Source: a virus (lineage: Duplodnaviria > Caudoviricetes). Taken from it: a stretch of DNA of 57,303 bases. The notes beneath the pieces are model-generated. The model was not told where the DNA came from, ran no database searches, and was given only the letters and a program-made list of their open reading frames with translations. The DNA lies in IMG/VR virus record IMGVR_UViG_3300005965_000006, positions 1 through 57,303 of that record. One strand, given 5' to 3'. Position numbers and translations under genes: made by a program. Positions 551 to 56,886 of this stretch are shown here, piece after piece (the stretch's first letter is position 1; every line of letters begins with the position of its first letter).

Positions 551-581
551 AAAGACCTCTTGGCTAGTCCAAGAGGTCTTT
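551..581. terminator. Bidirectional hairpin built from two copies of the dispersed motif
   Basis: AAAGACCTCTTGG-ctagt-CCAAGAGGTCTTT, flanked by A and T tracts, between convergent ORFs. Confidence 0.7.
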
Positions 582-598
582 GATTTTAGGGGAATTAA

Positions 599-688
599 CT
601 ATAAGGAATTAGCTATACCTCTTACTATACAAGTGAGTAATAGTAATGTTACTATTACCCAATAAGGGTCCATATTCTCTTCATTCAT
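599..688 (-). CDS. Small membrane peptide (29 aa, MNEENMDPYWVIVTLLLLTCIVRGIANSL)
   Basis: GAAAGGAG RBS; single hydrophobic stretch; paralog at 56887..56967. Confidence 0.65.
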   Translation of the reverse strand: MNEENMDPYWVIVTLLLLTCIVRGIANSL

Positions 689-718
689 GATACTATTCTC
701 CTTTCTTAATTACACACA

Positions 719-1222
719 ATTGAATACTAAACACATGACTATTAGACAATGGATTACTAGCTAGCTGGCTGAGCTATTTTCATATCTTTTTCATTGAGTT
801 GTTTAAGTAATGTGTCTTGATACTTTGTGGCTAATTCTAACAAGATTTTGTCTCTAGATTTCTTGTCAAGACTATCAACATAGTTCTTGAATTGAACTCT
901 AATCTTAGACTTTGAGTCTTGTTGTTTCATTTTGTTCTTATACCAACTAATACATTGACTAGTAGTCTTAGTTGTCAATCCATATTTTTCAAATATCATT
1001 TGAACTAAGTCAGCCGCCTGGTTAGCAGTCAGCTTGACACCATCTTGATAGTCATCAAACATGTGATTGACTATGAGAGTCTCAGCAACTACTTTAACAG
1101 TACTATTGGCATTGAACTGTGAACTATACTTCTTTACTAATTTATCCATGTGGCTACCTCGCTTTCATTTATTGTACTAATACTAAAAGGAAAGTCTAAT
1201 AGCCATGTGTATAGTATTCAAT
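719..1222. repeat. 29-bp inverted repeat pair (719-747 and 1194-1222) enclosing gene 757..1149
   Basis: ATTGAATACTAAACACATGACTATTAGAC vs GTCTAATAGCCATGTGTATAGTATTCAAT; 27 of 29 positions are complementary. Confidence 0.85.
757..1149 (-). CDS. Putative HTH-like DNA-binding protein, 'IxWY[KR]' paralog 1
   Basis: GAAAGCGAGGT RBS; motif TTSQCISWYKNKMK; aligns by eye with 48130, 49640 and 52420. Confidence 0.7.
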   Translation of the reverse strand: MDKLVKKYSSQFNANSTVKVVAETLIVNHMFDDYQDGVKLTANQAADLVQMIFEKYGLTTKTTSQCISWYKNKMKQQDSKSKIRVQFKNYVDSLDKKSRDKILLELATKYQDTLLKQLNEKDMKIAQPAS

Positions 1223-1453
1223 ACGTATTCAATTGTCAAGGTTCAAATTTGATTTGTTGTATTTTTGATTATATATGTATTATAGTCTTTGATTGAATGT
1301 TTTTAATCGCCTGTGTGACTAGTTCTAACTGTCTAATTAAAATATAATATCATAAACCACCAGGGTTAGTACACCTGTTCATTGTCTAAACAATTTTTCC
1401 CATGTGGGATTTAGCTAATGTAGATAGTAGTGATGCTAACTAGCTGTAGTGTT

Positions 1454-1810
1454 CGGTGGGCCGAAGGGCCTAGACAGGTTATTACAAGAATGCCTAGACA
1501 GGTTACTACAAGGTTGTAACAATCGGTGGGCCGAAGGGCCTAATACAGGTTATTACAAGAACCTAGTATAGGTTACTACAAGAACCTAGTATAGGTTACT
1601 ACAAGACTGTAACAATCGGTGGTCCGGAGGGCCTGGTGTCCGGACTGGCCTGGGAGCCAACCACCTGTGTGGCTTACAAACCTTCAGGTCTAGTAACCTT
1701 ACTACCAACCACCTGTGTGGCTTACAAACCTTCAGGTCTAGTAACCTTACTACCAACCACCTGTGTAGCCTGGGGGCCTAGGAGCCTAGTAACCTTACTA
1801 CCAACCAACA
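1454..1810. repeat. Complex tandem repeats: ~23-bp AGGTTAYTACAAG units, then ~3 x 48-bp units; probable packaging/terminus or origin region
   Basis: Five AGGTTAYTACAAG units in ~1476-1605, three CGGTGGKCCGRAGGGCCT, and 48-bp CCAACCACCTGTGT...TAGTAACCTTACTA units in ~1657-1808. Confidence 0.85.
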
Positions 1811-1950
1811 GGGCAGCCTAAGAGCCTTGGGACCTGGAAGCCTGGATACCAGACGGCAGGCTGGGGTACTAGCCTATGGACTACTGGTTGTGTGACTAGA
1901 GGGCCCGGGGGGCGAACCAGCCAGGTGGGCTAGGTCAGGTGGCCCGTAGC

Positions 1951-2082
1951 TAATAAAACACAGCCCATTTTTTGGTCTGGAAGGTTCCAACTACGGGAAT
2001 ATATAATACCGTAATAATAAAACACAGCCCATTTTTGGTCTGGAAGGTTCCAACTACGGGAATATATAATACCGTAATAATA
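1951..2082. repeat. Tandem duplication of ~63 bp
   Basis: TAATAAAACACAGCCCATTTTT(T)GGTCTGGAAGGTTCCAACTACGGGAATATATAATACCGTAA occurs twice; the copies differ only in T-run length. Confidence 0.9.
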
Positions 2083-2376
2083 AATTAGTAGCACGGCTGT
2101 ACGACACACCGATAAAACAACACGAATTTTTGCAATGTAAAAATATTACAGTGCCGTATGTGCCGTATGCGCCTGGTAGCTTAGAAGTGTTGCTATGACT
2201 GTATTTCGGCGGCACCGCGAGAGCACATAGTCTATGTATAGATATGTGCTTTTTTACTTAGTTATTGCCTACATATAGATAGTTCCATTGCTTAGGCTCG
2301 CCTACCCCTCGCGCGCAGGTATGTGCTAATTTTTCTTGGATTTCTCGGACAATGGGACAGAAAATTAATCAAATCC

Positions 2377-2520
2377 AATAACGGTATTATACAAAATCTT
2401 TTGGTCGATGGACAAATAATGGTATTATATAAAATCTTTTGGTCGCCGATGGACAAATAACTGTATTATACAAAATCTTTTGGCCGATGTACAAATAAAA
2501 CTTATTATGATATTATATAA
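2377..2520 (+). repeat. Three ~38-bp tandem units ending in a sigma70-type promoter
   Basis: AATAA..GTATTATA.AAAATCTTTTGG.CGATG.AC x3; the last unit runs into TGTACA-17-TATTAT with an extended TG, upstream of 2550. Confidence 0.7.
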
Positions 2521-2549
2521 GCATAATAAAGCAATACTTTGGGGTAAGC

Positions 2550-3803: not shown

Positions 3804-3873
3804 TGGAAAAATTAGCTTCTTGGACCTGTCTTCAAGTACGTGAGTTGAGGAGTCAACCTATGGGAGGATTGCT

Positions 3874-6664: not shown

Positions 6665-6877
6665 ATGGGTTCACCTAAACCTAAACCACAACCTTATCAG
6701 CCACCACCAGCTCCCAAACCTCCGAAGAAAGATACACAAGTCCAAGAGGAGGTTGCTGAAACTTCAAGGGTCGCTCGTCAAAAACGGCGTTTTGCAGGCG
6801 GTTATCGTTCCACTATACTTACAGGTGGACTCGGTGTATTAGATGAGGCTAGTACAAGGCGAAATACGTTAGGATAA
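6665..6877 (+). CDS. Small Pro-rich virion-associated protein preceding the portal
   Basis: MGSPKPKP...PPP and GYRSTILTG...TLG ending, a pattern common before podovirus portals; AAGGGAG RBS. Confidence 0.7.
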   Translation: MGSPKPKPQPYQPPPAPKPPKKDTQVQEEVAETSRVARQKRRFAGGYRSTILTGGLGVLDEASTRRNTLG

Positions 6878-8944: not shown

Positions 8945-9993
8945 TGAACTATGACGGAATTTTCAAAAGAAAAAGAGGTATGCTGCTCTGGGCCTATAAC
9001 AACCCTCCAGGTGATGGCAATAACCCTGGTGACGGTGGTGGCGGTACTGACCCTGGTAGTGGTGGCGGTGAGCCTAACCCACCTGGCGAAGGAGCTCCAG
9101 GAGACGGAAATACTCCTCCAGCAGACGATAAAGGAACTGGGGGAACTGGAGACAATAGCGATTCTGGAGACTCCGACGACTCGTTAAACATTAAATATGG
9201 AGATGATACTCCCATAGACAAGTTTCTTGAAGCCTATCCACAATTTAAGGATAATGGTTCTATTAAACGTTATAAGAATGTTGGTGAACTCCTTAAAGGC
9301 TTTACTGAGCTTGATTCTAAAATGGGTAATATGATTGCTCTTCCAGGCGAGGATGCTTCTGACGAAGAAAAGAATGCTGCTATGGATAAAATATTCCAGA
9401 AGCTTGGTAAGCCTGAGTCAGCTGACAAGTATGAACTTTCAAGTGATGTCCCAGATGGACTTCAGTTTAATGAAGAGTTACAAAAGGACTTTAAACAATT
9501 TGCTCATGAGAATAATTTCACTGCTGCTCAAGCCGCAGCAGCTCAGAAATTTTGGAATGATAAAATGGGCACTACACTTGAAGAGCATCAACGAAATCAA
9601 CGTATAGCTGAAGAAACCAATGCTCAAACTCAAGCTAAAGAACTTAAAGGTATGTGGGGTTCTGAATACAAAACTAGAACCCAGATAGCTATCAACACAG
9701 CAAAAAGTTTACTTTCTCAAGATATGCTTGATTACCTTGATGAAACAGGTCTTGGTAACAATGCAAAATTTATCAGAGATATGTATAATATAAGTAAGAA
9801 ATTCTCCGGCGACGGTCCACCTAAAGGACCCGGTGGCGGTGGTGGTGGAGAGGATTACGATTCTCTCACATCTGAAGCCATGTCAATTAAGAAAGAAAAA
9901 GATTGGCATCTTGACCCAGTCAAGAAAAAACGAGTCCAAGAGATAGACACGAAACGTGCGGAGTTAAGATTCGAGAAACCAAAACAACAGTAG
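8944..9993 (+). CDS. Capsid scaffolding protein
   Basis: G/P/D-rich N-terminus; KLGKPESADKY, LKGMWG and GLGNN motifs; precedes the major capsid gene. Confidence 0.8.
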   Translation: MNYDGIFKRKRGMLLWAYNNPPGDGNNPGDGGGGTDPGSGGGEPNPPGEGAPGDGNTPPADDKGTGGTGDNSDSGDSDDSLNIKYGDDTPIDKFLEAYPQFKDNGSIKRYKNVGELLKGFTELDSKMGNMIALPGEDASDEEKNAAMDKIFQKLGKPESADKYELSSDVPDGLQFNEELQKDFKQFAHENNFTAAQAAAAQKFWNDKMGTTLEEHQRNQRIAEETNAQTQAKELKGMWGSEYKTRTQIAINTAKSLLSQDMLDYLDETGLGNNAKFIRDMYNISKKFSGDGPPKGPGGGGGGEDYDSLTSEAMSIKKEKDWHLDPVKKKRVQEIDTKRAELRFEKPKQQ

Positions 9994-11886: not shown

Positions 11887-12480
11887 ATGGTAGTGAAAAT
11901 AGCGATAATAGGAAATCAAATCCTCAATAGTGGACCAATTCCTCCCGGCTATACAAAGTGGGGTTTTAATAGACAAATAAAAGAAGCTGATTATTGGTTT
12001 GATATTCATAGAAAAACCTGTGAGCATCTTACAGATAAGTCTGACTATGGAAAATTTATAAAAGAGAAAGGGAATAAGGCTTTTCTTTCTTTTGATAACC
12101 CTAATTTCCCGAAAGCTGAACATTTCCCTTGGGAGCAGTTGGTTTATAAGCATGGAGCTTTATTCACAAATTCAGTCGATTGGTTAATGGCTTATGCCAT
12201 CACATTAAAACCTAAGGTAATACTTCTTTACGGTATAACAATTCACCCAGAAGATAATCACGCTTTTTGCCGCCCTGGTAATGAATACTTTATAGGTTTC
12301 GCAAGAGGACAAGGTATTGAAGTAATAATTCCATCAACCTCTTGGCTCTGTCGACCTGAATATATTACCCCCGAGTATTATATAGGTCTTGACCATGGTA
12401 GGGGTATTTATGTTAGTGAGGATGCACTAGAACAGACAGTATTATTTAAAAATAAACAGTTATATGGAATAGAAAATTAA
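11887..12480 (+). CDS. Phage protein with possible GT29/DUF115-like Rossmann fold
   Basis: N-terminal IAIIGN and FTNSVDWLMAYAI...ILLYG...EYFIGFARGQGIEVIIP; has its own TGCTATAAT promoter. The fold is an inference. Confidence 0.5.
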   Translation: MVVKIAIIGNQILNSGPIPPGYTKWGFNRQIKEADYWFDIHRKTCEHLTDKSDYGKFIKEKGNKAFLSFDNPNFPKAEHFPWEQLVYKHGALFTNSVDWLMAYAITLKPKVILLYGITIHPEDNHAFCRPGNEYFIGFARGQGIEVIIPSTSWLCRPEYITPEYYIGLDHGRGIYVSEDALEQTVLFKNKQLYGIEN

Positions 12481-13650: not shown

Positions 13651-16056
13651 ATGAGAATACATCCTGGAATAAATATATTTAATACAGGAGAAGTTACTCC
13701 ATTAATGTATCATAGAAGAGACTTTAAAAAGTTTCCTTCTTCTTGTGCTGTGATGGAAAATTGTATACCACTTATTTATGGCCCTTTTATGAAACGTTCA
13801 GGAACTAAATATGTAGCTGGCGCTAAAAGTGATACAACTGATGCTTTATTAATTCCTTTTGTTTTTAGTGAGACACAATCCTATATAATTGAACTTGGTC
13901 ACTATTATGTTCGTTTTTATACTAATGAGGGTCAAGTGGTAAAGACTCTTGCAACCACGGATGCTTGGGTTACTGGAACAAATTATATTAATGGTTACAG
14001 CTATGTAAAAGAAAGCGGAACTATTTATAGATGTGCTGAAACACATACATCTGGTACTTTTGCTGATGACCTTGCTGCAGGTAAATGGACAGAACAGTCT
14101 ATTTATGAAATACCTTCTCCTTATGCTGCTGCAAATTTAACTGATTTAGATTTTGAACAGAATAATGATATTTTATTTATAACTTATAGTGGTTATAGAC
14201 CAATGAAGCTTTCTCGCTATAATCATACTAAGTGGGTTATGGAAGAGGTTGCTTTTAAAGATGGACCATATATGCCAGAAAATACAAATGATAGTTATAA
14301 GCTAGCTGCTTCTGCCGCTACAGGTAATATTACTATTCAGGCTACTGGTCATGGACCATTTACATCAAGTGATGTAGGTAGACATGTATGGATTAGTGAT
14401 GGAGGCTCACCACCAACTATTGGTTGGGCTAAAATTACAGCATATAATGATTCTGGTAATGTTGACGCAACAGTACAGAGAACAATGCCTATAGGTAATC
14501 AAACTAAATGGCGTCTTGGACATTATTCTGATGGGCGTGGTTGGCCTTATACAAATGGTTTTCATAGTGGTAGACATTATTATGGTGGAACAGATTCTGA
14601 CCCAGGTAGAGTTGATGGTAGTGTTCCAGATGATTATGAAACATTTTCACCTGTAGACCAAGTTACTGGAGACCAAACCGATGCTTCAGCAATTCAAGCA
14701 CCAATTTCAACAGGTAAATCTAATATAATTAAATGGCTTCTATCTATGGAAACATTGTTTGTTGGAACACTAGGTAATGAGGTTGCCTTTGAAGCTGAGG
14801 GTGGTGATACTGCTTTTACACCTACTAACTATGTTGTTAAAGAGATTTCTCAACATGGCTCAAAGAAACTTAAACCAATTAAACTAAATAATACTGGAAT
14901 CTTTTTGCAAAAAGCTGGACGTAAATTAAGAGAAATTACTTATTCCTTTACAGACGATAAATATATTTTCCCAGACTTATCTGTATTTGCTGAGCATCTT
15001 ACTTATGGTGGAATTAAACAAATTGCTTATCAAGAAGAACCTATTTCTATGTTTTGGATAGTAAAAGAAAATGGAGAACTAGTTTCCTTTGCTTATGATA
15101 AAAGGCAAGAAGTTATTGCTTGGGGTAGACATCAATTAGGTGGTAATTTTGTAAAGGTCCTCTCTGCTGCCGCAATACCTCATCCTACTGAAAATAGGGA
15201 TAGAGTCTGGTTATTGGTTGAAAGATATATCGACGGTGGACTTAAACGCTATGTAGAATATTTTGAGTCTGAATTTGATACTAACACAGACCAAGAAGAT
15301 GGTTATTTTGTTGATTGTGGAGCTACAAGAGATGTAACACAAGATATTGAAGATATTGAATGGGATGCTATTAATAGCGTTACAAATATAACAATTACCG
15401 GGCATGGCTTATCTACAGGCGATACTGTTATATTTAGAGATATTCTTACTTATGTAGGTACAGACTATTCTGAGTTAAATGGAAATAGTTATGAGATTAC
15501 TAAAGTAAATAATGATACTTTTTCTATAGAAGTAGATTCTAGTAGTTATACAGAGTATAACACAAATCAAAATGGTACTATAAGCTCATTTATTTCTGAG
15601 ATAACTAGTGGCTTAGACCATCTTGAAGGCGAGACTGTTGATGTAGTAGTTGATGGTGTACCTCAAACACAGAAAACCGTAACAAATGGTGAAGTAGAAT
15701 TAGATAGTGCTGGAGCAACTATACATATTGGACTACCTTTCTCAGCCTATTGGAAATCTTTAAGAATGATGAAAGATATGGGGGATGGTTCTCACTCAGG
15801 AGCACGCCACCAAAAAATACATGCTATAGATATAGATATATACAAAACAAGCTATGCTAAATATGGTACAGAAATAAATGGTGTAGAAGAATTAGTTGAA
15901 TTACCTATTGGAAATTCAAATTATGCTTTATCAACTAAAAAAGTAACAACTGATTTTGGCGGTCGTTGGGGTAAAGAACCACAAGTTATTATTAAAAGTG
16001 ATAAGCCAACACCTTTATGTATTCAAGAAGTAACCCCGTTAGTGAGTGTGAATTAA
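13651..16056 (+). CDS. Tail nozzle (tubular protein B-like)
   Basis: FNTGEVTP, KRSGTKYV, LIPFVFS, DLSVFAEHL, IAYQEEP, GLDHLEGETV. Confidence 0.9.
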   Translation: MRIHPGINIFNTGEVTPLMYHRRDFKKFPSSCAVMENCIPLIYGPFMKRSGTKYVAGAKSDTTDALLIPFVFSETQSYIIELGHYYVRFYTNEGQVVKTLATTDAWVTGTNYINGYSYVKESGTIYRCAETHTSGTFADDLAAGKWTEQSIYEIPSPYAAANLTDLDFEQNNDILFITYSGYRPMKLSRYNHTKWVMEEVAFKDGPYMPENTNDSYKLAASAATGNITIQATGHGPFTSSDVGRHVWISDGGSPPTIGWAKITAYNDSGNVDATVQRTMPIGNQTKWRLGHYSDGRGWPYTNGFHSGRHYYGGTDSDPGRVDGSVPDDYETFSPVDQVTGDQTDASAIQAPISTGKSNIIKWLLSMETLFVGTLGNEVAFEAEGGDTAFTPTNYVVKEISQHGSKKLKPIKLNNTGIFLQKAGRKLREITYSFTDDKYIFPDLSVFAEHLTYGGIKQIAYQEEPISMFWIVKENGELVSFAYDKRQEVIAWGRHQLGGNFVKVLSAAAIPHPTENRDRVWLLVERYIDGGLKRYVEYFESEFDTNTDQEDGYFVDCGATRDVTQDIEDIEWDAINSVTNITITGHGLSTGDTVIFRDILTYVGTDYSELNGNSYEITKVNNDTFSIEVDSSSYTEYNTNQNGTISSFISEITSGLDHLEGETVDVVVDGVPQTQKTVTNGEVELDSAGATIHIGLPFSAYWKSLRMMKDMGDGSHSGARHQKIHAIDIDIYKTSYAKYGTEINGVEELVELPIGNSNYALSTKKVTTDFGGRWGKEPQVIIKSDKPTPLCIQEVTPLVSVN

Positions 16057-38379: not shown

Positions 38380-38389
38380 GAGACACAGT

Positions 38390-40700: not shown

Positions 40701-40702
40701 TT

Positions 40703-42567: not shown

Positions 42568-43124
42568 AAAGAAAAGAGATTGAGTTAATACGTACTTTCC
42601 CCGATAAAATAGCTAAAGAAGTCTATTATATGAATTTAGCAATTGCAGTGTCCAAGAGGTCGACTTGTTTAGATAAGCAAGTTGGCGCTGTCCTAGTAGA
42701 CAACTACGGTAAAATTATAAGTTCAGGTTTTAACGGGGCTCCTTCTGGTTTTATTCATTGTACTGATACTAATCACTGTCATAAAGATAACGGTGATGCC
42801 TGTATAGCAGTACACGCTGAAGCTAATGCTATAGCCCAAGCAGGACGAGAGGCTACAGGTTGCACCTTATATGTAACACATTCTCCTTGTCTTGAATGTA
42901 CAAAGTTGATACTTAATGCTAAGATACTTCAAGTAGTAGCTTTAGAAATGTATTCAAAACATAAGAAGTATCCTAAATTATGTCCTGATATGCTATTTAA
43001 TGATACAAAGACAAATTTACTTTACCTTAAACCTATGTTAAACAATACACCAAAACAACCTTGTTTTAGGGACCCAATACAAGAATGTACTGGTTGCTAT
43101 GAACGTTGTTACGAAGACAGCTAG
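42564..43124 (+). CDS. dCMP deaminase family protein
   Basis: RSTC..QVGA, GFNGAPSG, HAEANA, PCLEC. Confidence 0.92.
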   Translation: MKRKEIELIRTFPDKIAKEVYYMNLAIAVSKRSTCLDKQVGAVLVDNYGKIISSGFNGAPSGFIHCTDTNHCHKDNGDACIAVHAEANAIAQAGREATGCTLYVTHSPCLECTKLILNAKILQVVALEMYSKHKKYPKLCPDMLFNDTKTNLLYLKPMLNNTPKQPCFRDPIQECTGCYERCYEDS

Positions 43125-44169: not shown

Positions 44170-44645
44170 AATTCATGTGCGCAGTCAGTCCAGAGGGCTA
44201 CATGGCCCAGGGACCGGAGGACGATATGGTATGGACTCCCCAAATAGACAAACAAATTTTTCAGATTGTGTCAGCCCTGGACGGAGGAATCTGTCTGGTG
44301 TCAAAACAGACACTTTCGAATATGCCAAGGTTCCTGACCGGAAGGACTCTAATTCCAATATCAAGCAACGGGTTAACTTTGGAGCAAGCCTACGAAAAGT
44401 TTCCAAACGCCTTATTAGTTTCGGGGCCAACATTGCTAAAGGATGCCAACCGCTTATCAGATTATGACACACCAATAATACAGGACCTAATAATTAACCA
44501 GGTCGATATACAACTTCTTGGACAAGATATTCCTGAAGAGTATCGTTTTCCTTTTGATATTCTAACAAATTACCATAAAGTAATTGAAGTACAATTCCAG
44601 GATATGAAAACTACTATATATAGACATAGCTTAAGGAGTGAATAA
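44166..44645 (+). CDS. Divergent dihydrofolate reductase-like protein
   Basis: CAVSPEGYMA..DDMVW...DK..F, LVSKQT, LTGR, LVSGP match DHFR segment order. Confidence 0.7.
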   Translation: MKFMCAVSPEGYMAQGPEDDMVWTPQIDKQIFQIVSALDGGICLVSKQTLSNMPRFLTGRTLIPISSNGLTLEQAYEKFPNALLVSGPTLLKDANRLSDYDTPIIQDLIINQVDIQLLGQDIPEEYRFPFDILTNYHKVIEVQFQDMKTTIYRHSLRSE

Positions 44646-44891: not shown

Positions 44892-46961
44892 ATGAAAAAA
44901 GATGATAGCTGGCGAGTGAAGGAAACTATTAAATTTGAGGACCTTCACAGTGATTGGGAATACCCAACAGAATTTCCCGAACTTAGTAAGGCAGATATAA
45001 TATCAATAGATACAGAGACTTGTGACCCGGGTCTTTCTGAGTTTGGACCAGGGTGGACTAGGGGAGAAGGAAATGTAGCTGGTATATCTATTGCTGCTCG
45101 TTTTGGTACAGAAGTATTTTCAGGGTATTATCCTATAGGTCATGGTGTTCATGGGCGAGATGGTAATATGGACCGAGCAATGGTAACTGATTGGCTAAGG
45201 AGAGAATTAAAAAGTAATACCCATAAAGTATATGCCAATGCTAATTATGATATGGGTTGGCTTTCTACTGAGAATATAGAAACAGTGGACTATGGTAGAA
45301 CAGAAGATATTCAGATAATGGCTCCCTTGATTAATGAACACATGTGGAGCTATTCTCTTGATACTCTTGGTAAATATTACCTTAAAGAATCTAAAGATGA
45401 GGCCTTGCTTAATTTGGCTATAGGTAAATATGGTTTAAAGCATCCTAAGAAAGAAATGTGGAAACTTCATCCTAAGTTTGTAGGACCTTATGCAGAGCAA
45501 GATGCTATTCTTACTTTGAAGCTATATGAGCACTTTAACCCACTTATAGATAAAGACCCTGTAAGTGGCCAATCGTTAAGACAGGTTTATGACCTTGAAA
45601 CTAAGTTAATTCCAATTCTCTTTAAAATGCAAAGACGTGGTATAAGAGTTGATGTTGGTAGAGCTGAAAAAGTAAAAGAAGAATTTCAAAAGCAAATAGC
45701 AGAGAGACAAAAGTGGTTAAATACTAAGGCTGGTTTTGAGATAAATGTTAACTCTGGAGATGATTTAGGTAGAGCTTGTGATGATTTAGGAATAGAGTAT
45801 CCGAGAACAGCTAAGACTAATAAACCATCTTTCACTAAAGACTTTATTGAATTTCATGATGCTGAGTTCCTCCGAGAGGTCCGTAAAGTTAGACAAATGA
45901 TGAAAGCTCAATCAACCTTTATTGAAAGTGCTATATTAAATAAAGTACATAATGGAAGAGTTCACCCACAATTCCACCAGTTACGTAGAAGTGATGACCA
46001 GAATGATGCTCTTAAAGGGACTATATCAGGTAGATTCTCTTGTACTACACCTAATATTCAACAAGTTAGCTCAAGAGATGAGGTTGTGGCTCCTCTTATA
46101 CGTCAGATATTCCTTCCTGAGGAAGATACGTTATGGGGTTCTTTTGACTATAGTTCTCAGGAGCCTAGGCACACGGTTCATAAAGCAGCTCAGCTATATA
46201 GAGCAGGCGTTACTACCTATTGGTTAGACCATTTAGCTAAATCTGAGGACGCTGTAAGGAAATATCACGAGGATCCAAAGACCGATTACCACCAGATGGT
46301 TGCAGACCTTTGTGGAATATCTCGTAAAGAAGCTAAGACTATCAACCTCGGTATTGCTTATGGAATGGGTGGAGCAAAGCTCTGTAAGTCCTTGGGCCTT
46401 CCAACTGAGATGCGAAGGATGTTTGGGAAGATGATTGAAATGGCCGGTCCCGAAGGGCAAGAGATTCTTGATAAGTATCACGCTGGGGCAGCATATATTA
46501 AAGGTCTTTCAAAGTTCTGTGAAAAATTTGCTAAGGATAACGGTTATATAAGAACCGAGCTTGGTAGACACGCTAGATTCAATGATTGGACTTCCACAGA
46601 CTTTGATACAGCACGAAAGACTAAACCTGAACCATTTGAAACTATGAGAGCCTATACCCGCGACCCTGAGAACCCTCTTTATGGTCATAGTATAGAAAGA
46701 GCAAAAACCTATGTAGCAATGAACAGGGTAGTCCAGGGTTCATCTGCAGACCAAACAAAATTAGCTATGCTTCAATGTTATGAAGCAGGTTATCTACCTT
46801 TAGCTCAAGTGCATGATGAACTCGCTATTCCAATATCTATTGTTAATAAAGAACAACAAGGCCAAGAGGTTAAAGAAATTATGGAAAACTGTATGCCTTT
46901 AATTGTACCTTCTCTAGTAGATTACGGCTTAGGTAGAACTTGGGGAGATGCTAAAGGATAA
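44892..46961 (+). CDS. polA: Family A DNA polymerase with 3'-5' exonuclease
   Basis: DTET exonuclease motif, YAEQD, SGRFS..PNIQQ, DYSSQE, RKEAKTINLGIAYG, QVHDE. Confidence 0.95.
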   Translation: MKKDDSWRVKETIKFEDLHSDWEYPTEFPELSKADIISIDTETCDPGLSEFGPGWTRGEGNVAGISIAARFGTEVFSGYYPIGHGVHGRDGNMDRAMVTDWLRRELKSNTHKVYANANYDMGWLSTENIETVDYGRTEDIQIMAPLINEHMWSYSLDTLGKYYLKESKDEALLNLAIGKYGLKHPKKEMWKLHPKFVGPYAEQDAILTLKLYEHFNPLIDKDPVSGQSLRQVYDLETKLIPILFKMQRRGIRVDVGRAEKVKEEFQKQIAERQKWLNTKAGFEINVNSGDDLGRACDDLGIEYPRTAKTNKPSFTKDFIEFHDAEFLREVRKVRQMMKAQSTFIESAILNKVHNGRVHPQFHQLRRSDDQNDALKGTISGRFSCTTPNIQQVSSRDEVVAPLIRQIFLPEEDTLWGSFDYSSQEPRHTVHKAAQLYRAGVTTYWLDHLAKSEDAVRKYHEDPKTDYHQMVADLCGISRKEAKTINLGIAYGMGGAKLCKSLGLPTEMRRMFGKMIEMAGPEGQEILDKYHAGAAYIKGLSKFCEKFAKDNGYIRTELGRHARFNDWTSTDFDTARKTKPEPFETMRAYTRDPENPLYGHSIERAKTYVAMNRVVQGSSADQTKLAMLQCYEAGYLPLAQVHDELAIPISIVNKEQQGQEVKEIMENCMPLIVPSLVDYGLGRTWGDAKG

Positions 46962-47001: not shown

Positions 47002-47244
47002 ATGCCATTGAGAAAAGATACACCTAACTACAAGAAAGCTGATGCTAATGAGCGTCTTAAACGTTACCATGCTCGTCAGGCCGCAATTAAGAAGTATGGG
47101 GCTGATGCTGTTAAAGGAAAAACTGTCCATCACAAAGACCACAACAACAAGAACAATAGCCCTTCGAACCTGGAGCTAAAGACTCGTAGTGCACATGGTA
47201 AGGAACATGGTAGAGGAAATGGAAAACGAGGTAAGAAAAAATAG
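47002..47244 (+). CDS. Small HNH-motif protein
   Basis: VHHKDHNNKNNSPSNL...H. Confidence 0.8.
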   Translation: MPLRKDTPNYKKADANERLKRYHARQAAIKKYGADAVKGKTVHHKDHNNKNNSPSNLELKTRSAHGKEHGRGNGKRGKKK

Positions 47245-47632
47245 ATACTGGCGGCCTGAGGTTAAAGAGTATAAGAGACGTCAGCTAGAAAACCATGAGC
47301 ATATAGCTCAGAAAGTTAAAAATATTAAAGATAATGGACGCGTGGCTTTTTATGTAAATAAAGAGCGTTCTATTGAAAGACACAAATATATACTCAGAGT
47401 ATTCAAAAGATGGAGCGATGATTATGTAGAAGGTAAGACGGACCAATTACCGCATATACCTACTATAGCCAATTATTGTGAAGTATCTTGTAAACTTGCC
47501 AGGAAAGTCCTTGCTCCTTATTATAAGCAGTATCTTACTTATAATACTATATCTAAGGAAGAGATAGACAATTATGGTTTATCTGACGAAGAGTATGAAC
47601 AAATATGGATGGGAGAGTGGATAGATGAGTGA
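47207..47632 (+). CDS. Hypothetical protein with possible HTH
   Basis: IPTIANYCEVSCKLARKVL; start uncertain. Confidence 0.55.
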   Translation: MVEEMENEVRKNRYWRPEVKEYKRRQLENHEHIAQKVKNIKDNGRVAFYVNKERSIERHKYILRVFKRWSDDYVEGKTDQLPHIPTIANYCEVSCKLARKVLAPYYKQYLTYNTISKEEIDNYGLSDEEYEQIWMGEWIDE

Positions 47633-48654: not shown

Positions 48655-49285
48655 CTTTATTCTCCTCGCATATATCTCTTAATGGACATTTTTTACAATC
48701 ACCTCTCTTGGACCCGCAGATTAAAGACCCAAAGTCCAAGAGGTGGTAGTTAAATTCCACATAGTTCTCATTGGGTAGTAATTTATTTAGGATATATTCA
48801 ACTTCAGTCTTACCCTCAATACCAAAAACCCTCCTAACAAATTTCTTTGTATTGGTATCATATATAATACGTCTCTCTTTATGGAAGAAGCAAGCTACGG
48901 CATTTGCACAATAGTCTCCACAACCAGGAAGGAATATTAAATCATTAAAGCCTATTGGGAGTGTTTGGTTTAAAAATGTTTCAGCTGCTTTCTTGAGAAC
49001 TGAGGCTCTATTGTGTTCAAGACCTAAAGAGAATAAATCTTTAGCTAATTCAGCTTCAGTAGTAGCATAAATATCCCAGAAGTTTTCATACTTAGCTAAA
49101 AAGAAATCTAATACATTTTCAACAGCTTCAGCTTTAGTCCGTGAAAGCAATATCTCCGCAATCAATATCCGCCAAAAAGTTGAGTTGGGCTGGCGCCAAG
49201 AGAAGAGCCGGAAGTTCTTCTGGCCCCATGATTTTAATCTCTTCCTCACTTCCTTTATCCTCTGTTGTTCCTGCTGTATATTCAT
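48638..49285 (-). CDS. HhH-GPD DNA glycosylase with 4Fe-4S motif (Mig/MutY-like)
   Basis: ILIAEILLSRT, LPGCGDY, DTN, Cx6Cx2Cx5C; AGGAGG RBS before ATG 49285. Confidence 0.9.
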   Translation of the reverse strand: MNIQQEQQRIKEVRKRLKSWGQKNFRLFSWRQPNSTFWRILIAEILLSRTKAEAVENVLDFFLAKYENFWDIYATTEAELAKDLFSLGLEHNRASVLKKAAETFLNQTLPIGFNDLIFLPGCGDYCANAVACFFHKERRIIYDTNTKKFVRRVFGIEGKTEVEYILNKLLPNENYVEFNYHLLDFGSLICGSKRGDCKKCPLRDICEENKDAKKN

Positions 49286-51056: not shown

Positions 51057-51069
51057 AAGGTGTCTCCTC

Positions 51070-51393
51070 TTAATTATTCTCTGGTCGCTCTGGACACGGT
51101 GGAATATTCCGTACCACATTTCTAATATACTTGTCCAAGAAGTCAGACCCCTTGGACTCGAAGCCTGATTCAATTTTCTGTATCTCATCAGGTGCACCTT
51201 GAAGCAAATCCTCAAGAAATGCTTTAGGTGATATTTTTCTTTTCATGGACAGCGTTACTATAATCATTTGTAAGAGTGTCATGAGATTGTCATTAGTACC
51301 ATCTGTATTTATTTGTACTTGGTCATTTGGAAACATTCTAGCGCATAATTCAGCAATCATCTTCTTCTTCCTTTTGTTCGCTGAATAAAGCAT
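51070..51393 (-). CDS. Hypothetical protein
   Basis: ORF in the early-gene string; start uncertain. Confidence 0.55.
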   Translation of the reverse strand: MLYSANKRKKKMIAELCARMFPNDQVQINTDGTNDNLMTLLQMIIVTLSMKRKISPKAFLEDLLQGAPDEIQKIESGFESKGSDFLDKYIRNVVRNIPPCPERPENN

Positions 51394-53745: not shown

Positions 53746-54078
53746 TTACTTAACAAATGCAGGACTTTCAAAAATCTCTTCCAAGAAGTTTATTTGTGCT
53801 ATTCTCTTCGCTATCTCGTATTGCACATACTCCATATAGACTGGATTAATTGAGTCTATAGTTATCTCTATCTGGTATCCATCACTACAGAATGGCTCAT
53901 AGTCATAGATAACATAACTATTATACTTGCTTCGCCATTCCATCTTAAGTATGATACAATTATTTTCTAATATCAGAGCTTTTATCCATTCACGAAGCTC
54001 TTGTGTACAAGGTCCGCTATCATGTATTATTATCATATTAGCTGGTTTATCTGGTGCCTTAGGTACTTGTAGTTTCAT
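53746..54078 (-). CDS. Hypothetical protein
   Basis: AGGAG RBS. Confidence 0.6.
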   Translation of the reverse strand: MKLQVPKAPDKPANMIIIHDSGPCTQELREWIKALILENNCIILKMEWRSKYNSYVIYDYEPFCSDGYQIEITIDSINPVYMEYVQYEIAKRIAQINFLEEIFESPAFVK

Positions 54079-54241
54079 TAATCAACTCCTGTCTTTTCTT
54101 AAACTTCTCGCACTTTATTATGTACTCTTTAGTGTAAGATGAGGAAGTCCAATCATGCAGTTGAGCACTCCAATTAGTCATCTTTCTGTATCGAGTACAA
54201 GACTTCTTGGACTTACAGTTCCAGTTACTGCATAGTATCAT
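54059..54241 (-). CDS. Small Cys-rich protein (MILCSNWNC...)
   Basis: AAGGGAG RBS before ATG 54241. Confidence 0.55.
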   Translation of the reverse strand: MILCSNWNCKSKKSCTRYRKMTNWSAQLHDWTSSSYTKEYIIKCEKFKKRQELINETTST

Positions 54242-54386
54242 TGATTCAACTCCCTTACAAATATAGTTAGTATCAATATCCCCGGTCCCGCTACTACAGG
54301 ATGTATCCATCCATTATGGATACAAAATCCTGTAGCAAAGACCAGTGTCACGCATATAAGATTAAACAACCCTCTACCCCAACGAC

Positions 54387-54993: not shown

Positions 54994-55003
54994 CTTTCCT
55001 CCT

Positions 55004-55102
55004 TTATTCTCCAAATAATTGCTTCCATACTAAGTTAGCTAATGGGTATAATACAAACTTGAAGATTAATACCCATAACAAGATTGCAATAAATTGTTCC
55101 AT
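55004..55102 (-). CDS. Small membrane peptide (32 aa, MEQFIAILLWVLIFKFVLYPLANLVWKQLFGE)
   Basis: First gene behind promoter copy B; GAAAGGAG RBS. Confidence 0.65.
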   Translation of the reverse strand: MEQFIAILLWVLIFKFVLYPLANLVWKQLFGE

Positions 55103-55110
55103 ACTATTCT

Positions 55111-55217
55111 CCTTTCAAATGTTACTAATACAAACTAATGGTTTCAATATTCATTATACTTATATTATAATTTAATAATTGTCAAAAGTGAATCTGCTTA
55201 GGAACACAATGCCTCAG
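55111..55217 (-). promoter_or_regulatory. Repeated early promoter/leader cassette, copy B
   Basis: ~105 bp matching ~82-187. Confidence 0.8.
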
Positions 55218-55393
55218 CTTCTCCACGGCCAAAGACCCTCATAAAATCATGGTCAAGTACTTGAAAATATATGTGCATCAGTCTTCCTCCTTTCTGATGA
55301 CTGTATCTAACCATCTTGGTATGCCTGAATAATAAACAAACCAGATAATACCTATAAATAAGAGTAGTGTATATGGGAAAGGTATGTGTTCAT

Positions 55394-56071
55394 TTACGAT
55401 GTATACCCGTACCTTCCTGTTATTATTTGTTCTATTTGCTCATCAATAAGAGAGTCCATATCCTTACGGAGTTGATACTTGATAAAGTATTTGAGACGTT
55501 CATTTTTTTCTTTAAGCTGAGTTACTTGTTCATCCAAGTTTTGTGTCAAAGCTTTCGCTGCTTCTATTCTTTTAACCATATCTATATTAGCCCCTACTTG
55601 TAGAGATTGAAGGTCTACAGTATCTTCACCAAATTTATTATTCCAAGCATTTATCTCAATCTTGGGTATCTCGACAATTGGACCCTCGGGCCCGGAGCCG
55701 TAGACCTTGCGCTCAACACCGAATACCTTCATAAGTGGTTGGCCATCTTTGTGCTTAGTTCTTTTCATACCTTTGACTTTAGGTGCTTTGTAGCCGAAGC
55801 TTTTGTTTTTCTTGCCTCTGTCCCGCCAATCAGTCTCTTCATAAACATCTGCTAGAGTCTTGCCAAACTCCGCTGCAATGGCTGTCATCAGCTTCTTGGC
55901 TGGATGATATGGCTGCTTTTCAGGGCCAACAGGATAGCCTCTCTCGATACTCTCAAGAGTAGTCTTAGTGCAACCAACGCGGTTGGCTAGTTCTTTAATT
56001 GTTAAGGGTGGCTCGAGAAATGTTTCTCTGTGCTTACGCACCCATTTGCCTAGTTTCATTTTCTCTGTCAT
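55394..56071 (-). CDS. XRE-family HTH transcriptional regulator
   Basis: LTIKELANRVGCTKTTLESIERG; C-terminal coiled coil. Confidence 0.85.
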   Translation of the reverse strand: MTEKMKLGKWVRKHRETFLEPPLTIKELANRVGCTKTTLESIERGYPVGPEKQPYHPAKKLMTAIAAEFGKTLADVYEETDWRDRGKKNKSFGYKAPKVKGMKRTKHKDGQPLMKVFGVERKVYGSGPEGPIVEIPKIEINAWNNKFGEDTVDLQSLQVGANIDMVKRIEAAKALTQNLDEQVTQLKEKNERLKYFIKYQLRKDMDSLIDEQIEQIITGRYGYTS

Positions 56072-56220
56072 ATTGCTACCTCGCTTTCATATTCACATTC
56101 TAAACATATACTTTCATGCAACTCTGATGTACATTGTGGACACACTGTAGCTCCACAAAACACACATTCAAAGAGTGTCTGGTCTTTTTGTTTGCAATGC
56201 TCGCAGGTTCCTTTAGCCAT
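56068..56220 (-). CDS. Small zinc-finger protein (50 aa, four CxxC pairs)
   Basis: MAKGTCEHC...CVFC..CPQC...CLEC; GAAAGCGAGGT RBS; ATGA overlap with the XRE gene. Confidence 0.7.
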   Translation of the reverse strand: MAKGTCEHCKQKDQTLFECVFCGATVCPQCTSELHESICLECEYESEVAI

Positions 56221-56328
56221 AGCTATACCTCGCTTTCATTATTATCTCTACATGGTAGTACATGGAGCCTGCTGGTCGGACTTTGCCACTACCATGTTTC
56301 GCCCAACTTTCATGGGCTCATCAGGAGG

Positions 56329-56667
56329 TTATAGTACCTGTAAGGTCATGGATACATTAGTTCCATCAGGCATATCTAAAGTTATGACTTTGATATAATC
56401 ATCAGATATGAACCAGTTAGCTTTGGCAATCATCTTCTCTACATCACTAAATTCAATATCAGCATCTATTGGTTTAATATCTTTATATATCAATACATTA
56501 TATATGTTCTTGTCTTTCCAATCGGGAAAAACTTCCTCATCAATAGGTTCTATCTCTACTTTAAGGTCGCCACATTTTGCCACACATTCATCTTTATTAA
56601 GTGTTGGTACAAAGTCCACACCGGTTCCACAGCTACTTGCCTTTAAGATTTCAATTAACTTTTCCAT
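56329..56667 (-). CDS. Acidic hypothetical early protein
   Basis: First gene behind promoter copy C; starts MEKL like the copy A and D genes. Confidence 0.65.
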   Translation of the reverse strand: MEKLIEILKASSCGTGVDFVPTLNKDECVAKCGDLKVEIEPIDEEVFPDWKDKNIYNVLIYKDIKPIDADIEFSDVEKMIAKANWFISDDYIKVITLDMPDGTNVSMTLQVL

Positions 56668-56830
56668 GAGGTCCTTCCTTTCAAATGTTACTAATACAAA
56701 CTAATGGTTTCAATATTCATTATACTTATATTATAATTTAATAATTGTCAAAAGTGAATCTGTTTAGGAATACAATGCCTCATGTGTTGACAACTCTAAC
56801 AACGACCATACCTTAAGGCTGAGGTGATGC
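56656..56830 (-). promoter_or_regulatory. Repeated early promoter/leader cassette, copy C
   Basis: Near-identical to 61-230. Confidence 0.8.
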
Positions 56831-56886
56831 ATAAGAACAGACCTCCTAGACTAGCCTAGACAGACAGGTCCAAGAGGTCTGTGTTC

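What the first reader, a model, noticed from the sequence alone, without database searches (positions are those of the whole stretch)
555..56878. Genome-wide 10-bp motif TCCAAGARGT embedded in genes in every reading phase
Seen: exact TCCAAGARGT on + at 568, 21402, 23067, 28831, 32498, 37651, 42651, 48735, 51134, 53780, 56869 and on - at 16979, 22703, 28561, 32156, 37467, 40001, 44513, 54202 (19 sites). GCCAAGAGGT adds 555, 12337, 17857, 23796, 46861. One-mismatch copies lie at 3815, 6741 and 9935. The count was made by eye and may be incomplete. A rough base-composition estimate (assuming ~36% GC) predicts about 0.2 copies of the 10-mer. The sites encode unrelated peptides (VQEV, SKRF, NLLD, PLGQ, TSW) in structural, replication and early genes, so selection acts on the DNA and not the protein. 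Inference: a dispersed recognition signal, such as operator/stoperator-like sites, sites for a phage nucleoid protein, self-marking against a nuclease, a Chi/parS-like host signal, or ejection/packaging checkpoints. I do not recognise it as a described motif.
Basis: partly seen in the sequence, partly recalled or inferred. Interest (0 to 1): 0.9.

Follow-up and report, generated by a model that had tools for sequence, protein, structure and literature searches.

The report
Phage-private DNA word on both strands
An uncultured 57-kb phage from a salt lake keeps about two dozen copies of one 10-12-letter DNA word, spread evenly along each strand and written straight through its genes, which looks like a signal read on the DNA by a phage enzyme, though what reads it is still unknown.

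Summary
TCCAAGARGT occurs 19 times (11+, 8-) against 0.34 expected. With GCCAAGAGGT there are 24 sites. Synonymous-codon shuffles give a mean of 2.6 and a maximum of 7 in 1000. The full word is R-K-CCAAGARGT-Y.

Sites lie in genes in 5 of 6 frames, sense and antisense. At 11 of 12 mappable sites the peptide differs in relatives.

New here: no two same-strand sites are closer than 1093 bp, while 8 opposite-strand pairs lie within 1 kb (P about 0.005), so the word is read strand by strand.

The nearest complete relatives lack this word but carry their own: CCAGGGAG and GGCG[C/T]CC.

No enriched host genome turned up, but the host is unknown.

My best guess, at about 0.3, is site-specific nicking by a phage nuclease, a both-strand variant of the tf/T5-type nick motifs. 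Priming signals, Chi-like sites and repressor sites remain open. No raw reads exist to test nicks.

This scan has noted the same kind of evenly spaced, strand-alternating private word on other phage DNA.

The parts
555..564 (-). word copy GCCAAGAGGT; left arm of terminator hairpin
568..577 (+). word copy TCCAAGAGGT; right arm of terminator hairpin
12337..12346 (-). word copy GCCAAGAGGT, antisense in ORF 11887-12480
16979..16988 (-). word copy TCCAAGAAGT, antisense in ORF 16708-17283
17857..17866 (+). word copy GCCAAGAGGT, sense in internal-virion/transglycosylase gene 17283-20159
21402..21411 (+). word copy TCCAAGAGGT, sense in ORF 20159-22183
22703..22712 (-). word copy TCCAAGAGGT, antisense in ORF 22173-24701
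23067..23076 (+). word copy TCCAAGAGGT, sense in ORF 22173-24701
23796..23805 (-). word copy GCCAAGAGGT, antisense in ORF 22173-24701
28561..28570 (-). word copy TCCAAGAGGT, antisense in ORF 28434-29120
28831..28840 (+). word copy TCCAAGAGGT, sense in ORF 28434-29120
32156..32165 (-). word copy TCCAAGAAGT, sense in SNF2 helicase gene 31014-32588 (-)
32498..32507 (+). word copy TCCAAGAAGT, antisense in SNF2 helicase gene
37467..37476 (-). word copy TCCAAGAAGT, antisense in UvrD-like helicase gene 36829-38379
37651..37660 (+). word copy TCCAAGAGGT, sense in UvrD-like helicase gene
40001..40010 (-). word copy TCCAAGAGGT, antisense in ORF 39223-40143
42651..42660 (+). word copy TCCAAGAGGT, sense in dCMP deaminase gene 42564-43124
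44513..44522 (-). word copy TCCAAGAAGT, antisense in ORF 44166-44645
46861..46870 (+). word copy GCCAAGAGGT, sense in DNA polymerase A gene 44892-46961
48735..48744 (+). word copy TCCAAGAGGT, antisense in HhH-GPD glycosylase gene 48638-49324 (-); pairs with near-copy at 48706
51134..51143 (+). word copy TCCAAGAAGT, antisense in ORF 50670-51215 (-); pairs with near-copy TCCAAGGGGT at 51147-51156 (-)
53780..53789 (+). word copy TCCAAGAAGT, antisense in ORF 53746-54078 (-)
54202..54211 (-). word copy TCCAAGAAGT, sense in ORF 54059-54310 (-)
56869..56878 (+). word copy TCCAAGAGGT, intergenic, 425 bases from the record's right end
3815..3824 (-). near-copy GTCCAAGAAGC (core GTCCAAGA kept); helps fill the 0.6-12.3 kb stretch without exact copies
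6741..6750 (+). near-copy GTCCAAGAGGA
9935..9944 (+). near-copy GTCCAAGAGAT
14514..14521 (-). near-copy, core GTCCAAGA only
48706..48719 (-). near-copy GTCCAAGAGAGGTG (two extra letters), inverted partner of 48735
47002..47244 (+). HNH_3 endonuclease, 80 aa: candidate nicking enzyme (inferred, not shown)
   Evidence: (PF13392, 37.2 bits, cut-off 24.8), (71% identical in G003)
47189..47632 (+). fast-evolving ORF that overlaps the end of the HNH gene in another frame: candidate specificity partner (speculative)
   Evidence: same arrangement in G003, no detectable similarity beyond the overlap
35095..36660 (+). AEP-type primase with conserved Cys cluster: candidate reader under the priming rival

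Best explanation
The word R-K-CCAAGARGT-Y is a phage-private, strand-specific DNA signal that selection keeps at intervals of roughly 1-6 kb along each strand. The most likely mechanism is that a phage-encoded nuclease recognises it and nicks the strand that carries it, giving localized single-strand interruptions like those of phages T5, the phiKMV-like phages and tf/Rembedalsseter, but here on both strands. The candidate nuclease is the small HNH_3 protein at 47002-47244, perhaps with the variable ORF that overlaps it. Such nicks could serve as entry points for strand-displacement synthesis or recombination by the phage's PolA and UvrD-type helicase, or could ease packaging.

Shown: the enrichment, its independence from coding, the per-strand spacing, and the existence of other private words in relatives.

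Inferred: that a phage protein reads the word, that the act is nicking, and which protein does it.
For: - Enrichment beyond composition and beyond the proteins: 19 against 0.34; 19 against a mean of 2.6 and a maximum of 7 in 1000 codon-preserving shuffles.
- Strand-specific reading: 0 same-strand pairs but 8 opposite-strand pairs within 1 kb (P=0.005 with strand labels shuffled). The smallest same-strand gap is 1093 bp (P=0.003). There are 17 strand alternations among 23 neighbours (P=0.027).
- Sites sit where proteins vary: at 11 of 12 mapped sites the peptide differs in G003/G002.
- Lineage-private words. G003 has CCAGGGAG 18 times against 0.75 in shuffles and GGCGCCC 21 times against 4.2. 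G002 has CCAGGGAG 10 times against 0.34 and GGCGTCC 9 times against 1.8. Of 10 aligned CCAGGGAG sites, 6 are identical between G003 and G002, with motif identity 0.90 against 0.74 in the flanks.
- The same combination is documented for nick motifs: a short word, mostly in coding DNA, with dialects between relatives. Phage tf has TACT/RTGMC at 14 sites, while PaP3 and LUZ24 use TACTATGAC (PMC3517423, passages read). Rembedalsseter has WACTRTGAC at 13 nicks, the motif is enriched in 61 phages, and 88% of copies lie in coding DNA (PMC11780129, passages read).
- An HNH_3 nuclease is present and 71% identical in the two word-bearing genomes where that region is covered. It gave no tblastn hit in 4 of 4 named phages that share the replication module. 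Those four have no comparable both-strand word.
Against: - All described nick motifs lie on one strand. Here the split is 13+/11-.
- Three tight inverted pairs (555/568 with 3 letters between the words; 51134/51147 with 3; 48706/48735 with about 16-20) would become double-strand breaks if both strands were nicked.
- The 555/568 pair is already explained as an intrinsic terminator (-20.4 kcal/mol, z -6.0, followed by a U run).
- No physical evidence of nicks. Only assembled contigs of three runs exist, with no read ends.
- The HNH link rests on 2 genomes against 4, and many other genes share that distribution (IxWY proteins, the nucleotide-modification module, the whole structural module).
- The HNH is more conserved (71%) than the words are different, so it cannot by itself set the specificity.
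- Known nick sites are not evenly spaced (tf: 11 of 14 in the left half).
Confidence: 0.3

Rival explanations
1. Priming signals. The word, or its complement, is the template site where the phage's AEP-type primase starts primers. Each strand then needs a site every few kb, like ssi signals of strand-displacement replicons or the 8-letter site reported for the NrS-1 primase-polymerase.
For: - Both strands are used and each strand is evenly spaced.
- Close pairs are always on opposite strands, and 6 of 8 are in the same relative order.
- The genome has an AEP primase (PF22548, 37.7 bits, cut-off 27; PHROG primase E 8e-82) with invariant cysteines in its middle part.
- It has a UvrD-type helicase and PolA, and no DnaB-type helicase among the proteins I scanned.
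- The NrS-1 and RSF1010 precedents are recalled or taken from earlier scan notes. I did not read those papers.
Against: - Four named phages with the same replication module (primase 24-35% identical) have no comparable both-strand word, and neither do most of the 66 IMG/VR loci of 12 kb or more that I screened at k=8.
- There is no GC- or AT-skew change at the sites (|z|<2 at five window sizes).
- No known primase needs 10-12 letters.
- An earlier check in this scan marked a like reading down on other DNA.
Confidence: 0.2
2. Chi-like signal. The word tames a helicase-nuclease, either the host's RecBCD/AddAB type or a phage one, so that phage DNA with a free end or a broken fork is spared or recombined. 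This would resemble the Chi-rich lambdoid phages.
For: - The copy number per genome is like that of phage LLS (23 Chi sites in its genome) and MD8 (32) (PMC12315714, passages read).
- Chi is read on one strand, which would fit a strand-specific pattern.
- The outermost exact copies face outwards in the orientation that would meet an enzyme entering from either record end (555 on -, 56869 on +).
- In G003/G002 the word CCAGGGAG is strand-biased, 12:6 and 8:2.
- GGCGCCC sites turn over fast: 1 of 11 is conserved between G003 and G002.
Against: - Known Chi sites have 5-8 letters (recalled). This word has 10-12 fixed positions.
- The orientation in G000 is balanced, 13:11, against 20:3 and 32:0 in the Chi-rich phages.
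- The record ends lie inside a repeat and may not be the physical ends.
- No genome searched is enriched: 151 sampled Cyanobacteria and 5 others have at most 19 copies, like the reversed control.
- Five other IMG/VR phage records that hold the hairpin form have 2-5 copies each.
Confidence: 0.12
3. Binding sites of a phage repressor or nucleoid-type protein (stoperator-like), read on double-stranded DNA.
For: - A 12-bp asymmetric site in about 24 copies inside genes resembles the Cluster A mycobacteriophage stoperators (recalled, and named in an earlier scan note).
- Private words differ between relatives.
- There are four paralogous early helical proteins of unknown function and an XRE-like protein with only a sub-threshold HTH match.
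Against: - Orientation does not follow transcription: 10 sense, 13 antisense.
- A double-strand binder gives no reason for same-strand copies to avoid each other while opposite-strand copies sit close.
- No integrase or repressor family turned up among the 53 proteins I scanned against Pfam. About 35 small ORFs were not scanned.
- The IxWY model has no assignable DNA-binding fold.
Confidence: 0.1
4. Uptake-sequence-like drive inherited from, or shared with, a naturally competent host (DUS/USS type).
For: - Both orientations occur in near-equal numbers and many frames are used.
- One tight inverted pair serves as a terminator.
- Relatives have dialects, and GGCG[C/T]CC sites turn over.
Against: - The scan for the hairpin form in 185,579 species' genomes gave scattered single hits in unrelated taxa. 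The 119 loci hold only 2-4 copies each.
- No enrichment in the 156 genomes searched.
- No known mechanism drives uptake words into a lytic-looking phage.
Confidence: 0.04

Closest known systems
Nick-associated motifs of phages with localized single-strand interruptions (tf TACT/RTGMC; Rembedalsseter and 60 relatives WACTRTGAC; phiKMV-like CGAC-N5-CCTACTCCGG; T5)
   Same: Short non-palindromic word, 10-70 times over chance. It lies mostly inside coding DNA without regard to frame. Relatives have dialects, and positions are partly conserved among close relatives. The hosts are podoviruses with a T7-type portal. The function is unknown even in the known cases.
   Different: Known motifs lie on one strand only, have 4-14 copies and cluster towards one end. 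Here there are 24 copies on both strands (13:11), evenly spaced per strand, with tight inverted pairs. There is no sequence likeness, and nicks are not shown here.
Chi sites accumulated by lambdoid phages that lack their own recombination module (LLS, MD8)
   Same: About 20-30 copies per genome of a host-type strand-specific word, far above chance and written through genes.
   Different: Chi has 8 letters, is strongly one-oriented (20:3, 32:0) and clusters at the free end. It is defined by the host enzyme. Here the word has 10-12 letters, its orientation is balanced, the host is unknown, and no enriched genome was found.
Single-strand initiation signals and sequence-specific primase sites (RSF1010 ssiA/ssiB with RepB'; NrS-1 primase-polymerase site). 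Recalled and named in earlier scan notes; papers not read here.
   Same: Strand-specific signals on opposite strands that let a replicon's own AEP-type primase start DNA chains. An AEP primase is present.
   Different: Those are one or two sites at an origin, or short sites. A genome-wide 12-letter word is not described. Relatives with the same primase family lack such words.
Stoperators of Cluster A mycobacteriophages (recalled)
   Same: Asymmetric 13-bp sites, about 25-35 per genome, many inside genes, differing between subclusters with the repressor.
   Different: Stoperators are oriented with transcription and belong to temperate phages with a known repressor. Here orientation is independent of transcription, and no repressor or integrase was identified.
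DNA uptake sequences (DUS, USS)
   Same: Words of 10-12 letters in both orientations, in genes in many frames, with inverted pairs as terminators and dialects between lineages.
   Different: Those are features of competent bacterial genomes at about one copy per kb. Here the genome is a phage's, and no such host was found.

Membership tests
Nick-associated phage motifs (T5, phiKMV-like, tf/LUZ24-like) | Physical single-strand breaks at the motif in virion DNA | not testable with these tools
   Only Logan contigs of three runs are held. There are no raw reads and no read ends.
Nick-associated phage motifs (T5, phiKMV-like, tf/LUZ24-like) | All or nearly all copies on one strand | tested here: not met
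   13 on + and 11 on -. In the literature cases all copies are on one strand.
Nick-associated phage motifs (T5, phiKMV-like, tf/LUZ24-like) | Word strongly over-represented and largely inside coding DNA | tested here: met
   19 against 0.34; 19 against 2.6 in codon-preserving shuffles; 21 of 24 in credible genes.
Nick-associated phage motifs (T5, phiKMV-like, tf/LUZ24-like) | Relatives keep the word or a dialect at similar positions | tested here: inconclusive
   G003/G002 share CCAGGGAG at 6 of 10 aligned sites. None of the 14 G000 sites that mapped onto G003 lies within 100 bases of a G003 site. The only close relative of G000 could not be fetched.
Chi sites in phages | Strong orientation bias towards the free DNA end | tested here: not met
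   13:11 overall. The strand does not depend on position (Mann-Whitney P=0.25). The outermost copies do face outwards.
Chi sites in phages | The same word is over-represented in the host genome | tested here: inconclusive
   Host unknown. 156 genomes searched, none enriched.
Cluster A-type stoperators | Site orientation follows the direction of transcription | tested here: not met
   10 sense, 13 antisense, 1 intergenic.
Cluster A-type stoperators | Cognate repressor binds the site | not testable with these tools
   No repressor identified. The XRE-like protein 55394-56071 has only a sub-threshold HTH_3 match (17.6 bits, cut-off 23).
Primase start sites / ssi signals | Primer synthesis starts at the site | not testable with these tools
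   No nascent-strand data.
Primase start sites / ssi signals | Phages with the same primase family also carry such words | tested here: not met
   0 of 4 named relatives (HTVC023P, HTVC027P, DSL-LC04, 023Pt_psg01) have a comparable both-strand word. Among 66 IMG/VR loci of 12 kb or more, I counted 5 with a both-strand 8-mer at P<1e-6: L013, L223, L261, L293 and L297. In three of them (L261, L293, L297) the word TCCWGGAG partly reflects protein motifs.
DNA uptake sequences | Host genome with about one copy per kb | tested here: inconclusive
   Not found in those searched. Host unknown.
Phage promoters (T7-type or T4-late-type) | Copies upstream of genes and co-oriented with them | tested here: not met
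   21 of 24 lie inside genes and both orientations occur within the one-directional block 12-48 kb.

The most novel reading that the evidence does not exclude
This phage and its relatives each use a private 'licence word' that only their own DNA-processing enzyme reads on a single strand, about every 1-6 kb on each strand. The word marks where phage DNA synthesis or strand entry may begin, by nick or by primer. It thereby doubles as a self-mark that tells phage DNA from host DNA. The word and its reader drift together, giving dialects (TCCAAGAGGT here, ACCAGGGAGT in G003/G002). This would be a genome-wide, both-strand initiation code not described for any phage.
Probability: 0.2. Interest if true: 0.85.

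Novelty: new variant of a known kind. Interest (0 to 1): 0.62.

Why it matters
If the word marks nicks or primer starts on both strands, it would extend a 50-year-old unexplained feature of phage DNA, localized nicks, to a new arrangement. That arrangement is on both strands, evenly spaced and lineage-private. It would also point to a function in replication or recombination, where most proposals so far concern packaging.

A 12-letter site with its own nicking or priming enzyme would be a useful rare-cutting tool.

The word is also a practical marker: private words could help to bin and classify uncultured phages.

The case is directly testable, because the sites, two candidate enzymes and the predicted read-outs are named.

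Tried and rejected
**Close relatives.** A metagenome scan with a primase alignment returned only 4 distant loci. IMG/VR scans with portal, primase and HNH alignments gave no relative closer than about 50% portal identity apart from a 4.6-kb piece without sites. So conservation of this word at synonymous sites could not be tested.

**Microdiversity and nicks.** Three hypersaline-lake runs hold the sequence, as contigs only. Over 21001-41000 they are identical apart from 2 single-contig differences outside the sites. No read starts or ends are given.

**Host search.**
- 151 Cyanobacteria and 5 other genomes were not enriched.
- The hairpin form in IMG/VR gave 8 loci. The 5 records checked hold 2-5 copies each.
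- Ribosome-binding sites of the AGGAG type precede 42 of 63 genes, so a Bacteroidota host is unlikely.

**Composition and position.**
- Skew change at sites: none.
- AT-rich DNA between close pairs: none.
- Positional homology between G000 and G003 sites: none.
- Likeness of the two words (6 of 10 letters, the rest mostly purine for purine): not significant once offsets are allowed. I keep it as a remark only.

**Candidate reader proteins.**
- IxWY proteins: 8 homologous clusters in 1.84 billion representatives. The AF2 model has pLDDT 74. Foldseek found nothing at E<=0.001. VIA wide gave a best Z of 6.0, which is background for helical models.
- HNH with the ORF 47189-47632 product: the complex job gave no verdict.
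- HNH against solved structures: the best match is I-HmuI at E 0.36, not significant.
- The primase profile and the VRR-NUC-like protein have no solved relative by sequence.

**Literature.**
- Search for the letters of the words: 25 of 1,616 papers listed, all primers or unrelated.
- A search for over-represented phage motifs gave nothing pertinent among the 15 listed.
- Supplementary files were not opened. The supplementary tables of PMC12315714 and figure S2 of PMC3517423 may hold details that I did not see.

**Earlier scan notes by sequence.** Nothing for P0002 or P0007.

Full report
**What the window is.** The window is a whole IMG/VR virus record of 57,303 bases, rated 100% complete and 'linear', with GC 0.37.
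- It encodes a T7-type head-tail connector (PF12236, E 1e-107) and a large terminase interrupted by an intein with a LAGLIDADG domain.
- It also encodes tail and internal-virion proteins, a family A DNA polymerase, an AEP-type primase, a UvrD-type helicase and an SNF2 helicase.
- Further genes are a MazG-Nmad1 protein, a thymidylate-synthase homologue, a dCMP deaminase, an HhH-GPD glycosylase, a small HNH_3 endonuclease and a protein with a PD-(D/E)XK-like motif.
- Genes run rightwards to about 48 kb and leftwards from there to the end.
- AGGAG-type ribosome-binding sites precede 42 of 63 genes.
- The last 172 bases repeat the first 172 with 3 mismatches and belong to a set of repeated promoter-leader cassettes. 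The record ends therefore lie in a repeat and need not be the physical ends.
- Three runs labelled hypersaline lake metagenome hold the sequence.
- The nearest cultured phages are Pelagibacter podophages by portal (about 33%). By replication module they are the HTVC023P-type pelagiphages, DSL-LC04 and 023Pt_psg01 (primase 24-35%).

**The observation.**
- TCCAAGARGT occurs 19 times against 0.34 in dinucleotide shuffles. Adding GCCAAGAGGT gives 24 sites.
- A de novo k-mer screen puts this word and its sub-words at the top at k=9-11. GTCCAAGAGGT occurs 8 times against 0.04 expected and GTCCAAGA 22 times against 2.5.
- The aligned sites give a compact 12-letter word, R-K-CCAAGARGT-Y, with no conservation outside it.
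- Of the 24 sites, 21 lie in credible genes, 10 sense and 13 antisense by my crude calls, in five of six frames.
- At 11 of the 12 sites that can be mapped onto the proteins of relatives G003 and G002, the relatives encode a different peptide. The word therefore sits where the proteins tolerate change. Selection on the DNA is the only reading that fits.

**Near-copies.** With one mismatch allowed there are 40 matches against 8.8 expected. Seven further copies of the core GTCCAAGA lie outside full sites. Four of them (3818-, 6742+, 9936+, 14514-) fill the 0.6-12.3 kb stretch and its right edge, which has no exact copy.

**Strand pattern.**
- Neighbouring sites alternate in strand 17 times out of 23 (P=0.027).
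- All 8 pairs closer than 1 kb are on opposite strands, and no same-strand pair is that close (P=0.005 when strand labels are shuffled).
- The smallest same-strand gap is 1093 bases (P=0.003 against random placement).
- Six of the 8 close pairs have the minus-strand copy on the left.
- Near-copies break the rule twice (21245+/21402+ and 32498+/33416+).
- Each strand thus carries its own fairly regular series. That is what one expects of a reader working on one strand or in one direction, and not of a protein that simply sits on the duplex.
- I found no change of GC or AT skew at the sites, no AT-rich DNA between close pairs and no dependence of strand on position (P=0.25).

**Tight inverted pairs.** There are three.
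- 555/568 is a 13-bp stem followed by a U run on the leftward transcript, directly after gene 757-1149. It is an intrinsic terminator (-20.4 kcal/mol, z -6.0).
- 48706/48735 and 51134/51147 each involve one near-copy, and both lie inside genes.

**Relatives.**
- The portal has many metagenomic relatives on contigs of 54-58 kb. I could reach only those in IMG/VR.
- The records G003 (56,025 bases) and G002 (43,753) have about 50% portal identity to the window and the same gene order. They hold only 2 and 1 chance copies of CCAAGARGT.
- They have words of their own. CCAGGGAG occurs 18 times in G003 and 10 times in G002, against 0.75 and 0.34 in codon-preserving shuffles.
- GGCGCCC occurs 21 times in G003, and GGCGTCC 9 times in G002, against 4.2 and 1.8.
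- Between G003 and G002 (74% nucleotide identity where alignable), 6 of 10 aligned CCAGGGAG sites are identical, and the word is 90% conserved against 74% in the flanks. Only 1 of 11 GGCGCCC sites is kept. One word is therefore old and held in place, while the other turns over.
- CCAGGGAG is strand-biased (12:6 and 8:2), unlike the window's word.
- None of the 14 G000 sites that mapped onto G003 lies within 100 bases of a G003 site.
- In a screen of 66 further IMG/VR loci of 12 kb or more from the wider family, most had no both-strand 8-mer beyond background. Those with TCCWGGAG owe part of it to protein motifs such as the Walker A loop.
- Four named phages that share the replication module have no comparable word. 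HTVC023P has CAGTTCC 34 times against 6.9, almost all on one strand.

**Who could read it.**
- Genes shared by the two word-bearing genomes but without a tblastn hit in the four word-less named phages are the HNH, the IxWY proteins, the nucleotide-modification module and the structural genes. The primase, both helicases and the polymerase are shared by all. This speaks weakly against the primase as reader and weakly for a clade-specific protein.
- The HNH (80 aa) is 71% identical between G000 and G003. In both genomes a fast-evolving ORF follows it and overlaps its end in another frame. A PD-(D/E)XK-type nuclease comes next.
- Small phage HNH proteins can be site-specific nickases. For N.phiGamma I saw only the abstracts in the listing.
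- The link to this word is inference only. The complex job for the HNH and the adjacent ORF gave no verdict and counts for nothing.
- The IxWY family is tiny, with 8 clusters in 1.84 billion representatives. Its model has no assignable fold.

**Host-derived readings.**
- I scanned one genome per species for the hairpin form of the word.
They and 5 other genomes hold the 11-mer no more often than its reversed control.
- Five other phage records with the hairpin are not enriched.
- This does not exclude a host signal, since the host is unknown. It does leave that reading without support.

**Comparison with what is known.**
- The closest described things are the nick-associated motifs. In tf, 14 copies of TACT/RTGMC, all on one strand, are each nicked in most virions. 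Related phages use a one-letter variant at similar positions, and the authors suggest co-evolution of nickase and site (PMC3517423, passages).
- In Rembedalsseter, nanopore coverage of one strand drops at all 13 WACTRTGAC copies. 60 related phages are enriched in the motif, and 88% of copies are in coding DNA. The function is unknown (PMC11780129, passages).
- The present word shares length, enrichment, indifference to coding and dialects. It differs in lying on both strands, in being evenly spaced and in forming tight inverted pairs.
- Chi-rich lambdoid phages have similar copy numbers, but an 8-letter, strongly one-oriented, end-clustered host word (PMC12315714, passages).
- Stoperators, uptake sequences and ssi/primase sites each share some features and fail others, as set out in the membership table.

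**Earlier notes of this scan.** The scan has met the same kind of thing on other DNA: evenly spaced, strand-alternating private words in crAss-like phages, in a 54-kb phage with CTGGGACCACC and in a virus with GACCAGG. Later checks upheld the observations and priced specific reader claims low. I used these notes as leads. They led me to the 2025 nick paper, the skew test and caution about the primase. My skew test on this window was negative.

**Verdict.** The feature is real and strongly selected at the DNA level. It is read strand by strand, it is private to this lineage, and I did not find it described in print. The mechanism is open. I put site-specific nicking by a phage nuclease first (about 0.3), then priming signals (0.2), a Chi-like nuclease control (0.12), a duplex-binding regulator (0.1) and an uptake-like drive (0.04). 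The rest goes to something not yet considered. I class it as a new variant of a known kind, with interest 0.62.

Noticed in passing
window 3874-6309: The large terminase gene is interrupted by an intein with a LAGLIDADG endonuclease domain (PF14528, PF14890; terminase parts at residues 9-251 and 578-771).
   Followed up: no
window 40703-43124 and 48638-49324: A nucleotide-modification module (MazG-like plus Nmad1/DUF1599, thymidylate-synthase homologue, dCMP deaminase) and an HhH-GPD glycosylase. G003 and G002 also have the module, but the four named replication-module relatives gave no tblastn hit. The phage DNA may carry a modified pyrimidine, which would also change how the word looks to its reader.
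   Followed up: partly
window 1-172 and 57132-57303; 55090-55201, 56656-56767, 57192-57303; 57023-57189: The record's two ends share 172 bases with 3 mismatches. They are part of repeated promoter-leader cassettes and a 77-nt tandem pair, so the assembly probably broke inside a repeat.
   Followed up: partly
window 1430-1848 and 1969-2498: Several tandem repeat arrays (48-nt x4, 42-nt x3, 53-nt x2, 43-nt x3) lie at the switch between leftward and rightward genes. This is a candidate origin or packaging region.
   Followed up: no
window 757-1149(-), 48130-48654(-), 49640-50188(-), 52420-53040(-): Four paralogous early helical proteins share a C/S-I-x-W-Y-K/R motif. The family has only 8 clusters among 1.84 billion representatives and no assignable fold.
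   Followed up: partly
window 47002-48059; G003 (reverse orientation) 49655-50559: The arrangement HNH / overlapping out-of-frame ORF / PD-(D/E)XK-like nuclease is conserved. The middle ORF is unrecognisably diverged between the two phages.
   Followed up: partly
G003 (L091-L093), reverse orientation 5042/5055, 5943/6029, 37233/37303, 49090/49203, 50287/50480: In G003 the two different words CCAGGGAG and GGCGCCC lie within 200 bases of each other five times, always on opposite strands (one search lists). About 2.7 such neighbours are expected by chance, so this is suggestive only.
   Followed up: no
Pelagibacter phage HTVC023P (W01, L315-L318): CAGTTCC occurs at 34 dispersed places against 6.9 expected, 31 of 37 occurrences on one strand. 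ACCGGGAG occurs at 7 places against 0.31, on both strands. This is a cultured phage in which a word of this kind could be tested.
   Followed up: no
L021 (IMG/VR record of 34,455 bases): Two 8-mers, AGCAGGGA and ACGATCTA, each occur at about 19-20 places, almost all on one strand. They look like parts of one longer promoter-type repeat.
   Followed up: no
window 51134-51158: The inverted pair of a word copy and a near-copy would form an 11-bp stem with two G-U pairs only in the leftward (coding) transcript of ORF 50670-51215. I worked this out by hand from the sequence printed and did not fold it.
   Followed up: no
G004 (L097) 10-121: Eight head-to-tail copies of a 14-nt unit (GTTGAGTCATAAGA) lie at the very start of the record.
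   Followed up: no
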